From Escherichia coli (lineage in GTDB: Bacteria > Pseudomonadota > Gammaproteobacteria > Enterobacterales > Enterobacteriaceae), in assembly GCF_044324875.1 (NCBI RefSeq), contig NZ_CP172185.1: DNA of 64,000 nt; one strand, written 5' to 3'. Below, piece after piece: positions 16,759 to 44,800 of this stretch. The translations under genes were made by a program, and so were the position numbers. The notes under the pieces were generated by a model that was not told where the DNA came from, did no database searches, and was given only the letters and a program-made list of their open reading frames with translations. The first letter of the stretch is position 1. Every line of letters begins with the position of its first letter.

Positions 16759-16858
16759 CTGATGCGCTACGCTTATCAGGCCTACACGTATCCTGCAATA
16801 TATTGAATTCGCAGGTTTTTGTAGGCCGGATAAGGCGTTCACGCCGCATCCGGCATGA
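16759..16858. repeat. REP/BIME cluster (two REP units in opposite orientation)
   Basis: gcctgatgcgctacgcttatcaggcctac and gtaggccggataaggcgttcacgccgcatccggca. Confidence 0.8.
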
Positions 16859-30832: not shown

Positions 30833-30853
30833 TTCCCCTTCTCTGAAAATCAA

Positions 30854-30883
30854 CGGGCAGGTCACTGACTTGCCCGTTTTTTT
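30854..30883 (+). terminator. serA intrinsic terminator
   Basis: cgggcag...ctgcccg hairpin followed by a T7 tract. Confidence 0.75.
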
Positions 30884-30989
30884 ATCGCTTCTCCACACCG
30901 TTGCCGCGTTGTGCATTCGGCTTTGCGAGTCTGCTCCAGAAAATAAATCAAAGTCAGATCAATGCGTTGTGTTTATTTAATGGGGATTT

Positions 30990-31140
30990 ACGATGGCAGG
31001 GCAGCATGGTGCTGTAACGGTAAAGCCCTCACCGAAGCGAGGGCTTGAAGGAGAAGGGTTATGATGCGACTTGTCATCATACTGATTGTACTGTTACTCA
31101 TAAGTTTCCCAGCTTATTAACAGTCAGTCTCAGGGGAGGA
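30990..31140 (-). ncRNA. sibC: SibC antisense sRNA (antitoxin of ibsC); boundaries approximate
   Basis: Expected from the position between serA and ygfA and the presence of the ibsC ORF on the opposite strand; ends not determined from sequence. Confidence 0.4.
31061..31120 (+). CDS. ibsC: Type I toxin IbsC (19-aa hydrophobic peptide)
   Basis: ATGATGCGACTTGTCATC... encodes MMRLVIILIVLLLISFPAY; followed by a gggaggaGTCATcctccc hairpin. Confidence 0.8.
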   Translation: MMRLVIILIVLLLISFPAY

Positions 31141-31220
31141 GTCATCCTCCCTTACCCTTACTCACTAAATTAGGTTAAAGAATCAACGATGTCAATCAGG
31201 GCGATGCAGGTGTGTCGCCC

Positions 31221-31769
31221 TTACCACTCCCAGACTTTCGACGGTGTAACCACCGCAGGAAGTGGGATATCCCACTCTTCAACGGGGAGTTTTTCCACCA
31301 ACTGACAATCATGCGCATAACCCACCGGTTGCATTTGATAGCGCTGCCAGTTTTGTAAGGTCCGATCATAAAAACCACCGCCCATTCCCAGGCGCTGACC
31401 GTACTCATCAAAGGCGACCAGCGGTGTGATCAACACGTCTAATCGGGAAAGGGGTAGCACGTCACGCACATCCAGTTTTGGCTCATGGATCTTCAACCTG
31501 TTCATCACCAGTTCGCTTTGCGGATGGTAATTCAGGAACAGCAAATTACCGGCACTAAAGGGATGCAAAACTGGAAGATATACGCGCTTACCGGCGCGCC
31601 AGAGTTGTTCTATGAGTGGCTGGGTGTCGAGTTCGCCATCAAAAGAGAGGAATACAGCGACCGTATGTGCCATCACCACTGGGGGATAAGTCATCATCCG
31701 GGTAGCAGCTTGTTGACCCATTTCCTGCTGTTGTTCCGGCGTTAACGCACGACGACGTTGCCGAATCAT
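31221..31769 (-). CDS. fau: 5-formyltetrahydrofolate cyclo-ligase
   Basis: 182 aa from MIRQRRRALTPEQQQEMGQQAATRMMTYPP; the longer ORF in the track runs into ssrS. Confidence 0.9.
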   Translation of the reverse strand: MIRQRRRALTPEQQQEMGQQAATRMMTYPPVVMAHTVAVFLSFDGELDTQPLIEQLWRAGKRVYLPVLHPFSAGNLLFLNYHPQSELVMNRLKIHEPKLDVRDVLPLSRLDVLITPLVAFDEYGQRLGMGGGFYDRTLQNWQRYQMQPVGYAHDCQLVEKLPVEEWDIPLPAVVTPSKVWEW

Positions 31770-31843
31770 TTTGCGGATTTCTTGTCGGGATAATGTCAGT
31801 GGGAGTTCTGGTAGTTGCGTCATGGCTGGTGCCAGATAAGAAG

Positions 31844-32027
31844 GGAATCTCCGAGATGCCGCCGCAGGCTGTAACCCTTGAACCCTTGGTTCAAGGTGAA
31901 TGTGTCGTCGCAGTTTTAAGGCTTCTCGGACGGACCGAGCATGCTCACCAACCGCGGAGCGCCACATTCTTGTGGTATGAAATATCGGCTCAGGGGACTG
32001 GCCCGCTTGCGAACATCTCAGAGAAAT
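31844..32027 (-). ncRNA. ssrS: 6S RNA
   Basis: Reverse complement matches 6S RNA (5'-ATTTCTCTGAGATGTTCGCAAGCGGGCCAGTCCCCTGAGCC...GGAGATTCC-3'); immediately upstream of fau as in the ssrS-ygfA operon. Confidence 0.9.
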
Positions 32028-44624: not shown

Positions 44625-44800
44625 TGTGCATTAGTAGGCCTGATAAGACGCGTCAGCGTCGCATCAGGCATCGGATCGCAACTGCCGGATGCGGCGTGAA
44701 CGCCTTATCCGGCCTACGGGCCGCGTCCTTGGTGTGATAAAGGCACCAAATCCCAGGCATGATAAGACGCGTCAACGTCGCATCAGGCAATAGTCGCCGG
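44625..44800. repeat. BIME cluster (three to four REP units)
   Basis: Repeated gcctgataagacgcgtca(g/a)cgtcgcatcaggc and gccggatgcggcgtgaacgccttatccggcctac units. Confidence 0.85.

What the first reader, a model, noticed from the sequence alone, without database searches (positions are those of the whole stretch)
30980..31150. ibsC/sibC type I toxin–antitoxin locus between serA and fau
A 19-codon hydrophobic ORF (MMRLVIILIVLLLISFPAY) with its own downstream hairpin sits in the serA–ygfA intergenic region, which is where the SibC antisense RNA is expected. The sRNA ends cannot be fixed from sequence alone.
Basis: partly seen in the sequence, partly recalled or inferred. Interest (0 to 1): 0.3.

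Follow-up and report, generated by a model that had tools for sequence, protein, structure and literature searches.

The report
Known E. coli ibsC/sibC toxin–antitoxin locus
This is the well-known ibsC/sibC locus of Escherichia coli: a 19-residue membrane-toxic peptide gene that is silenced by a small RNA made from the opposite strand, so it is real but ordinary.

Summary
The observation and the interpretation both hold. The ORF MMRLVIILIVLLLISFPAY* lies at 31061-31120 (+) and matches Pfam Ibs_toxin (47.3 bits, cut-off 27). The opposite strand matches Rfam SIB_RNA RF00113 (136.5 bits, gathering score 56). The window is E. coli. The serA–fau spacer is 100% identical to strain GN25, where ibsC is annotated, and 5425 of 5426 complete genomes carry the locus.

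- SibC is 31159→31019 (-), 141 nt.
- The ibsC mRNA runs from 31001 to about 31159 (+).
- The Rfam hit (31195→31045) is shifted. It includes the sibC promoter and omits the terminator.

The finding's span clips the last 3 nt of the hairpin, the first 9 nt of SibC and the sibC promoter.

The one noteworthy detail is allelic. The window differs from K-12 at SibC +49..+51 (UGG vs GCU; Pro17 vs Ser17), the TRD1 triplet that Han et al. 2010 mutated to retarget SibC. The window allele is the commoner one (2790 vs 2165 of 5426 genomes). It is probably silent, because TRD2 is identical.

Already known; low interest.

The parts
30967..30994 (+). Putative ibsC promoter: -35 TTGTGT at 30967-30972, 16-nt spacer, -10 TACGAT at 30989-30994
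   Evidence: Read from the sequence. Its position fits the transcription start mapped by primer extension in Han et al. 2010. The -10 is invariant in six strains. It was not called by the consensus scan. Inferred.
31001..31159 (+). ibsC mRNA (159 nt). The 5' end is transferred from K-12 mapping. The 3' end is only approximate.
   Evidence: Han et al. 2010 report a 159-nt mRNA with an 18-nt 5' overhang beyond the SibC 3' end and a size of about 160 nt on northern blots. The reported pairs G50/G51/G53 with C110/C109/C107 fit window 31050/31051/31053. The predicted fold has MFE -63.6 kcal/mol, z -5.34.
31048..31053 (+). Shine-Dalgarno AAGGAG of ibsC, 7 nt upstream of the ATG; the target of SibC TRD2
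   Evidence: Sequence. It is unpaired in the mRNA MFE structure. Han et al. 2010 place the TRD2 target in the translation initiation region.
31061..31120 (+). ibsC coding sequence: 19 codons plus stop, MMRLVIILIVLLLISFPAY*
   Evidence: Translation. Pfam PF13956 Ibs_toxin at 47.3 bits against a cut-off of 27. RefSeq annotates it as ibsC, WP_071525914.1, in identical DNA. It is 18/19 identical to K-12 IbsC.
31109..31111 (.). Allelic triplet: CCA (Pro17) here, AGC (Ser17) in K-12. This equals SibC +51..+49, UGG here and GCU in K-12, in the TRD1 loop.
   Evidence: Alignments. Han et al. 2010 changed G49CU51 to retarget TRD1 to ibsD. The window allele's 41-mer is in 2790 genomes and the K-12 allele's in 2165, of 5426.
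31132..31153 (+). Hairpin downstream of the ibsC stop codon (9-bp stem, loop GUCA). On the other strand it is the 5'-proximal stem-loop of SibC (+9..+26).
   Evidence: MFE folds of both strands. It was not called as an intrinsic terminator, and no U-run follows it.
31019..31159 (-). SibC antitoxin sRNA, 141 nt (5' end 31159, 3' end 31019). It overlaps the whole ibsC SD and ORF.
   Evidence: Ungapped alignment to K-12 sibC b4446, 3056851-3056991, with 136/141 nt identical. Rfam RF00113 at 136.5 bits. MFE -55.3 kcal/mol, z -4.93. 10 of 44 consensus pairs show compensatory changes among paralogs.
31092..31114 (-). TRD1 of SibC (+46..+68, the hairpin loop called P5 by Han et al. 2010), complementary to ibsC codons 11-18
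   Evidence: Coordinates transferred from Han et al. 2010. Positions +48..+55 form a loop in the MFE structure.
31045..31061 (-). TRD2 of SibC (+99..+115, including the single-stranded region called J1/7 by Han et al. 2010), complementary to the ibsC SD and start region
   Evidence: Coordinates transferred from Han et al. 2010. Positions +107..+113 are unpaired in the MFE structure. The sequence is identical to K-12.
31023..31046 (-). SibC terminator stem-loop (+114..+137; 10-bp stem, UUCG loop), followed by only a short U tract
   Evidence: MFE fold. Compensatory changes occur in the paralog alignment, columns 125-128 with 135-138. Invariant in six strains. It falls outside the Rfam model.
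31167..31195 (-). sibC promoter: -35 TTGACA at 31195..31190, 17-nt spacer, -10 TAATTT at 31172..31167, transcription start at 31159
   Evidence: Sequence. It is included in the Rfam model consensus, positions 1-29, and both hexamers are invariant in six strains. A sigma-S RNA polymerase ChIP peak is assigned to the sibC promoter in K-12 (Peano et al. 2015). The simple scan misses it because the -10 matches only 3 of 6 positions.

Best explanation
The locus is the E. coli ibsC/sibC type I toxin-antitoxin pair, orthologous to K-12 b4665/b4446.

The + strand makes a mRNA of about 159 nt (31001 to about 31159). It encodes IbsC, a 19-residue hydrophobic peptide. When IbsC is made it inserts into the inner membrane, depolarises it and stops growth.

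The - strand makes SibC from its own promoter. SibC is a 141-nt RNA (31159 to 31019) that is perfectly complementary to the ibsC Shine-Dalgarno sequence and the whole ORF. SibC first contacts the mRNA through two independent recognition domains. TRD1 is a hairpin loop that pairs with codons 11-18. TRD2 is a single-stranded stretch that pairs with the SD and start region. Pairing then spreads into the flanks, blocks translation and makes an RNase III substrate, so the toxin is normally never made.

Shown here by computation: the sequence elements, family membership, orthology, predicted folds and allele frequencies. Shown by others in K-12: the RNA ends, TRD1 and TRD2, toxicity and depolarisation. 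Inferred for this allele: that the K-12 mechanism carries over unchanged.
For: - Rfam SIB_RNA gives 136.5 bits against a gathering score of 56, full length, on the - strand.
- Pfam Ibs_toxin gives 47.3 bits against a cut-off of 27, over profile positions 1-19 of 19.
- The spacer is 100% identical to E. coli GN25, where ibsC is annotated between serA and fau.
- K-12 annotates both sibC and ibsC at the same site. The ungapped alignment is 98% identical, with only 5 differences inside SibC.
- 5425 of 5426 complete E. coli genomes carry the locus.
- The paralog alignments show conserved peptide residues M1 M2 I6 I7 L11 L12 S15 F16 Y19, and compensatory changes in 10 of 44 consensus pairs.
- The SibC MFE fold (z -4.93) reproduces the closing stem (P1), the TRD1 loop (P5), the single-stranded TRD2 stretch (J1/7) and the terminator (P7) of Han et al. 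2010.
- The published base-pair partners fit the transferred coordinates exactly.
- Toxin action is documented in the literature: depolarisation within minutes, an alpha-helical peptide and psp operon induction.
Against: Nothing contradicts it.
- No expression data exist for this strain.
- The peptide differs from the K-12 toxin at residue 17 (Pro for Ser), and the toxicity of this allele was not tested here.
- NCBIfam gave no HMM hit.
- The consensus promoter scan called neither promoter.
- The ibsC 3' end is not mapped, even in K-12.
Confidence: 0.97

Rival explanations
1. The locus is a decayed, non-functional copy: the sequence is recognisable as Sib/Ibs but no longer encodes an active toxin or antitoxin.
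For: The peptide carries Pro17 instead of the Ser17 of the characterised K-12 toxin. C-terminal residues 6-19 are reported as important for toxicity. The physiological role of chromosomal Ibs/Sib pairs is unknown.
Against: The ORF, SD, both promoters and the terminator are intact and identical to K-12 outside 5 positions. The allele is the most frequent one, in 2790 of 5426 genomes. Pro at the equivalent position is also found in IbsB and IbsE. The SibC fold is unchanged, with the same MFE of -55.3 kcal/mol.
Confidence: 0.02
2. Only the sRNA matters. The short ORF is a by-product of the repeat, and SibC acts mainly on other targets in trans.
For: A 19-codon ORF is statistically unremarkable. 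SibC is abundant, and its transcription is tied to sigma-S.
Against: The peptide family has its own Pfam model, matched end to end. Nine of 19 residues are invariant across the five K-12 paralogs while the DNA varies. A well-spaced SD is present. Toxicity of IbsC and its repression by SibC are published.
Confidence: 0.01

Closest known systems
E. coli K-12 MG1655 ibsC (b4665) / sibC (b4446)
   Same: Same chromosomal site (serA - ibsC/sibC - fau - ssrS - zapA), same lengths (141-nt RNA, 19-codon ORF) and same promoters, SD, TRD2 and terminator. SibC is 136/141 nt identical and the alignment is ungapped. This is the orthologue.
   Different: There are five nucleotide differences inside the RNA. 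Three form the triplet at SibC +49..+51 in TRD1 (UGG vs GCU), which changes IbsC Ser17 to Pro17. Two lie in the loop of the 5' hairpin (31142-31143). The YUNR tetranucleotide UUCA in the predicted ibsC loop of K-12 is UUCC here.
Paralogous pairs ibsA/sibA, ibsB/sibB, ibsD/sibD, ibsE/sibE (the Sib repeats of E. coli; formerly QUAD, a name recalled from memory)
   Same: Same architecture and family: mean column identity of 82% across the RNAs, peptides 68-84% identical to this one, and the same predicted fold with compensatory pairs.
   Different: They lie at other loci (mdtA-yegL and yqiK-hldE). Their TRD1 and TRD2 sequences differ. Contiguous Watson-Crick complementarity of the window SibC to non-cognate ibs mRNAs is at most 14 bp in TRD1 and 13 bp in TRD2. 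The engineered retargeted helices of Han et al. 2010 were 22 and 25 bp.
Other chromosomal type I toxin-antitoxin pairs of E. coli (ldr/rdl, hok/sok, shoB/ohsC, tisB/istR-1, symE/symR)
   Same: A small toxin whose mRNA is repressed by an antisense RNA. Most of the toxins are small hydrophobic membrane peptides that depolarise the membrane.
   Different: In Ibs/Sib the antisense RNA spans the entire functional mRNA, both the translation initiation region and the ORF. In the others the overlap is partial, or the antitoxin is encoded in trans (OhsC, IstR-1). There is no sequence relationship.

Membership tests
Sib RNA family (Rfam RF00113) | Covariance-model score at or above the curated gathering score, over the full length of the model | tested here: met
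   136.5 bits against 56, E 5.4e-28, model positions 1-147 of 147, - strand 31195..31045.
Sib RNA family (Rfam RF00113) | An independent transcription unit of about 140 nt on the strand opposite ibs, with its own promoter and terminator | tested here: met
   -35 TTGACA, 17-nt spacer and -10 TAATTT, with the start at 31159. Terminator stem at 31046..31023. The length is 141 nt by transfer from K-12. These elements are invariant in six strains. Transcription itself was not observed here.
Sib RNA family (Rfam RF00113) | The RNA is complementary to the whole ibs translation initiation region and ORF | tested here: met
   SibC 31019-31159 fully contains the SD (31048-31053) and the ORF (31061-31120).
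Sib RNA family (Rfam RF00113) | Conserved secondary structure (closing stem, TRD1 hairpin, single-stranded TRD2, terminator) | tested here: met
   MFE -55.3 kcal/mol, z -4.93. The consensus fold of six Sib RNAs has 44 pairs, 10 of them with compensatory changes. With only six related sequences the covariation support is modest.
Ibs toxin family (Pfam PF13956) | Profile-HMM score above the curated cut-off | tested here: met
   47.3 bits against 27, E 1.8e-12, profile positions 1-19 of 19. The query was the peptide plus one upstream residue, because the tool needs at least 20 aa.
Ibs toxin family (Pfam PF13956) | An 18-19 residue, highly hydrophobic peptide with the conserved MM...SF.AY frame | tested here: met
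   19 aa. M1 M2 I6 I7 L11 L12 S15 F16 Y19 are invariant with the five K-12 Ibs peptides.
Ibs toxin family (Pfam PF13956) | Overexpression is toxic and depolarises the membrane | not testable with these tools
   Published for K-12 IbsC (review PMC8309996). Not tested for the Pro17 allele.
ibsC/sibC orthologue specifically (as opposed to A, B, D or E) | Chromosomal position between serA and fau (ygfA), and closest identity to K-12 sibC | tested here: met
   The gene order rpiA-serA-ibsC-fau-ssrS-zapA is seen in GN25 and K-12. Identity to K-12 is 136/141 nt, with much lower identity to the paralogs.
Type I toxin-antitoxin system | The cognate antisense RNA represses toxin synthesis, with discrimination against paralogs | not testable with these tools
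   Shown in K-12 by co-transformation and probing (Han et al. 2010). Here there is only an indirect check: TRD1 and TRD2 of the window SibC stay distinct from the paralogs of proxy strain GN25, with at most 10 and 13 contiguous Watson-Crick bp.

The most novel reading that the evidence does not exclude
The E. coli population carries two major sibC/ibsC alleles. They differ by a complete triplet (UGG vs GCU in SibC; Pro17 vs Ser17 in IbsC) at exactly the TRD1 positions (+49..+51) shown experimentally to set target specificity. No intermediates appeared among the six strains sampled. This dimorphism might reflect selection on toxin-antitoxin recognition. Examples would be avoiding cross-talk with whichever paralog set a strain carries, or two specificity types maintained by recombination. 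The alternative is a neutral multi-nucleotide change.
Probability: 0.1. Interest if true: 0.3.

Novelty: already known. Interest (0 to 1): 0.07.

Why it matters
It matters little beyond correct annotation, because ibsC/sibC has been described and dissected in K-12 since 2008-2010.

Practical points:
- Automated RefSeq annotation of the identical sequence lists the ibsC CDS but not the sibC RNA.
- The Rfam hit coordinates are offset by about 36 nt from the real transcript. Anyone annotating from the covariance-model hit alone would misplace both RNA ends.
- The allele here, not the K-12 one, is the commoner form in sequenced E. coli. It differs within the experimentally defined specificity triplet of TRD1. 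That is a small but testable point about how cis-antisense recognition tolerates change.

Tried and rejected
- My first translation at 31062-31121 was out of frame. The correct coordinates are 31061-31120.
- The consensus promoter/terminator scan found no promoter on either strand and only the serA terminator. I do not read this as evidence against the locus. The sibC -10 (TAATTT) matches only 3 of 6 consensus positions and fails the scan's rule despite a perfect -35. The SibC terminator has only a short U tract.
- NCBIfam gave no hit for the peptide. This is uninformative, because the query is very short and PGAP still names the identical protein IbsC.
- The primary paper, Fozo et al. 2008, is not held by PMC id or DOI. 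Its results are cited only through Han et al. 2010 and a review.
- I tested whether the TRD1 allele makes the window SibC match another paralog, which could allow cross-talk. Watson-Crick runs are at most 10 bp against the paralogs of proxy strain GN25 and 14 bp against K-12 ibsD, so I rejected the idea. The variant of this measure that allows G-U pairs gave long runs (26-37) even for pairs known not to cross-react in K-12, so I discarded it as non-discriminating.
- I considered the downstream hairpin as an intrinsic terminator of ibsC. It ends about 6 nt before the inferred mRNA 3' end but lacks a U-run, so that role is unproven. On the other strand it is certainly the 5' stem-loop of SibC.

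Full report
**Observation.**
- The ORF ATG ATG CGA ... TAT TAA lies at 31061-31120 on the + strand and translates to MMRLVIILIVLLLISFPAY* (my first attempt one base to the right was out of frame).
- A Shine-Dalgarno AAGGAG at 31048-31053 precedes the ATG by 7 nt.
- After the stop codon there is a hairpin with a 9-bp stem at 31132-31153.
- A 19-codon ORF has no statistical weight on its own, since 91 ORFs of at least 20 aa overlap the surrounding 5 kb. The family searches are what make it real.

**Family tests.**
- A scan of the whole window against Rfam found SIB_RNA (RF00113) on the - strand at 31195..31045. It scored 136.5 bits against a gathering score of 56, E 5.4e-28, over the full model.
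- The peptide, with one extra upstream residue to reach the tool's 20-aa minimum, matches Pfam PF13956 Ibs_toxin end to end. It scored 47.3 bits against a cut-off of 27, E 1.8e-12.
- NCBIfam returned nothing, which I regard as uninformative for such a short query.

**Origin and orthology.**
- The serA–fau spacer (30836-31220) matches 5425 of 5426 complete E. coli genomes. It is 100% identical to strain GN25.
- In GN25, RefSeq annotates ibsC (WP_071525914.1) in the order rpiA-serA-ibsC-fau-ssrS-zapA-ygfB-pepP. The same order is seen in the window ORFs, and the 6S RNA hit lies at 32027..31844.
- K-12 MG1655 annotates both genes here: sibC b4446 at 3056851-3056991 and ibsC b4665 at 3056890-3056949 on the opposite strand.
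- The alignment of the window spacer to K-12 is ungapped through the locus and 98% identical. This places SibC at 31159 (5') to 31019 (3') on the - strand, 141 nt, with 136 of 141 positions identical.

**Anatomy checked against published mapping.** Han et al. 2010 (PMC2943612) report the following:
- The Sib RNA ends are well defined.
- The ibsC transcription start was mapped by primer extension.
- They used a 159-nt ibsC mRNA with an 18-nt 5' overhang beyond the SibC 3' end.
- ibsC G50, G51 and G53 pair with SibC C110, C109 and C107.

With ibsC +1 at 31001 and SibC +1 at 31159, those residues fall on 31050, 31051 and 31053. These are the G residues of the GGAG of the SD, so the two coordinate systems agree exactly. 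From this:
- TRD1 (+46..+68) is 31114..31092, opposite ibsC codons 11-18.
- TRD2 (+99..+115) is 31061..31045, opposite the SD and the start codon.
- The MFE fold of the window SibC (-55.3 kcal/mol, z -4.93) reproduces the published elements. There is a closing stem (+1-6 with +101-106), a 5' hairpin (+9-26), a TRD1 hairpin with loop +48-55, a hairpin at +79-100, a single-stranded +107-113 and a terminator at +114-137.
- Across the window SibC and the five K-12 Sib RNAs, 10 of 44 consensus pairs show compensatory changes.
- The sibC promoter reads TTGACA (31195..31190), a 17-nt spacer, then TAATTT (31172..31167), with the start 7 nt further on.
- A plausible ibsC promoter is TTGTGT (30967-30972), a 16-nt spacer, then TACGAT (30989-30994).
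- The consensus scan called neither promoter, because each falls short of its thresholds.
- The sibC hexamers, the ibsC -10 and the terminator are invariant in six diverse E. coli strains.
- In K-12 a sigma-S RNA polymerase ChIP-seq peak was assigned to the sibC promoter (Peano et al. 2015, PMC4447067).

**A point about the Rfam hit.** The model's first 29 positions are the promoter (TTGACA ... TAATTT), and the model stops before the terminator. The hit coordinates 31195..31045 are therefore shifted about 36 nt upstream at the 5' end and fall 26 nt short at the 3' end of the transcript 31159..31019.

**The downstream hairpin.** On the + strand it sits at ibsC mRNA +132..+153, about 6 nt before the 3' end inferred from the transcript of about 160 nt. 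No U-run follows it and the scan does not call it a terminator. On the - strand the same sequence is the 5' stem-loop of SibC. Whether it ends or stabilises the ibsC mRNA is not established, even in K-12.

**Mechanism.** The steps below were shown in K-12 by others and are inferred here by near-identity.
1. SibC is made from its own promoter.
2. It contacts ibsC mRNA through TRD1 (loop) or TRD2 (single strand next to the closing stem). Either domain suffices.
3. Pairing spreads into the flanks. The duplex blocks the ribosome-binding site and is cut by RNase III.
4. Without SibC, IbsC is translated. IbsC is an alpha-helical membrane peptide that depolarises cells within minutes, reduces viability and induces the psp operon.

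**What differs from K-12.** Inside SibC there are five differences: 31109-31111 (CCA vs AGC) and 31142-31143 (TC vs CA, in a hairpin loop).
- The triplet changes IbsC Ser17 to Pro17, and SibC +49..+51 from GCU to UGG.
- This is precisely the triplet (G49CU51) that Han et al. replaced with UGC to redirect TRD1 to ibsD.
- The window's 41-mer around it occurs in 2790 of 5426 genomes and the K-12 41-mer in 2165. The window therefore carries the commoner allele.
- Among the sampled strains, CFT073, AR_0128 and O157:H7 have CCA, while K-12 and U13A have AGC.
- Both alleles give the same SibC fold and energy. The YUNR tetranucleotide UUCA in the predicted ibsC loop of K-12 becomes UUCC here, while the SibC loop keeps a YUNR (CUGG).
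- In GN25, used as a proxy for the window's genome, the other copies are four tandem ibs genes between mdtA and yegL and one between hldE and yqiK.
- Contiguous Watson-Crick complementarity of the window SibC to those mRNAs is at most 10 bp in TRD1 and 13 bp in TRD2. This is like K-12 SibC against its own paralogs, at most 12 and 13 bp, and well below the 22-25 bp helices of the engineered retargeting.
- TRD2 is identical in both alleles and either TRD suffices, so I expect the two alleles to cross-repress. The dimorphism is probably functionally silent.

**Comparison and verdict.** The locus is the orthologue of K-12 ibsC/sibC and a member of the Sib (RF00113) and Ibs (PF13956) families. Every defining feature that sequence can test was met. 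Toxicity and repression cannot be tested here. The feature is already known, and interest is low.

Noticed in passing
window 31109-31111 (SibC +51..+49): E. coli has two major sibC/ibsC alleles that differ by a whole triplet. CCA/Pro17 (the window's allele) has its 41-mer in 2790 of 5426 complete genomes. AGC/Ser17 (K-12) has its 41-mer in 2165. This is the TRD1 triplet that Han et al. 2010 mutated to change target specificity. The change needs three substitutions, or a -2/+2 pair of indels (TTTC[CC]AGC vs TTTCAGC[GC]). No intermediate was seen among the six strains examined.
   Followed up: partly
L007 32271-33315 and L006 8480-8539 (E. coli GN25): Ibs/Sib copy number varies between strains. 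GN25 has four tandem copies at about 328-bp spacing between mdtA and yegL (three 18-aa IbsB-like peptides plus IbsA), where K-12 has two. It has a single copy between hldE and yqiK, where K-12 has ibsD and ibsE.
   Followed up: partly
window 31045-31195 (-) versus 31019-31159 (-): The Rfam SIB_RNA model covers the sibC promoter (-35 and -10) and omits the terminator. Its hit coordinates are therefore offset from the real transcript. RefSeq/PGAP annotates only the ibsC CDS, not the sibC RNA, in GN25.
   Followed up: yes
window 31844-32027 (-) and 31221-31967 (-): 6S RNA (ssrS) lies just upstream of fau (Rfam 139.8 bits). The longest mechanical ORF for fau (248 aa) runs through ssrS. The annotated fau start also differs between records: 603 nt in GN25 and 549 nt in K-12.
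   Followed up: no
window 31196-31219 (-): On the - strand, a hairpin AGGGCGA-N10-TCGCCCT begins 1 nt after the fau stop codon and ends immediately upstream of the sibC -35. It has no U-run. It may mark the end of the ssrS-fau transcript. Its loop varies between strains.
   Followed up: no
window 44637-44714 (both strands) and 16778-16820 (-): There are two other Rfam hits above gathering score. naRNA4 (a REP-like palindromic element) scores 81.3 and 59.7 bits on the two strands. ES036 scores 42.5 bits.
   Followed up: no
E. coli genome collection: In one of the 5426 genomes, O157:H7 strain TR01, the best match to the sibC query was only the ibsE paralog (77.5% identity), so it appears to lack sibC. 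One or two matches lie on plasmids.
   Followed up: no
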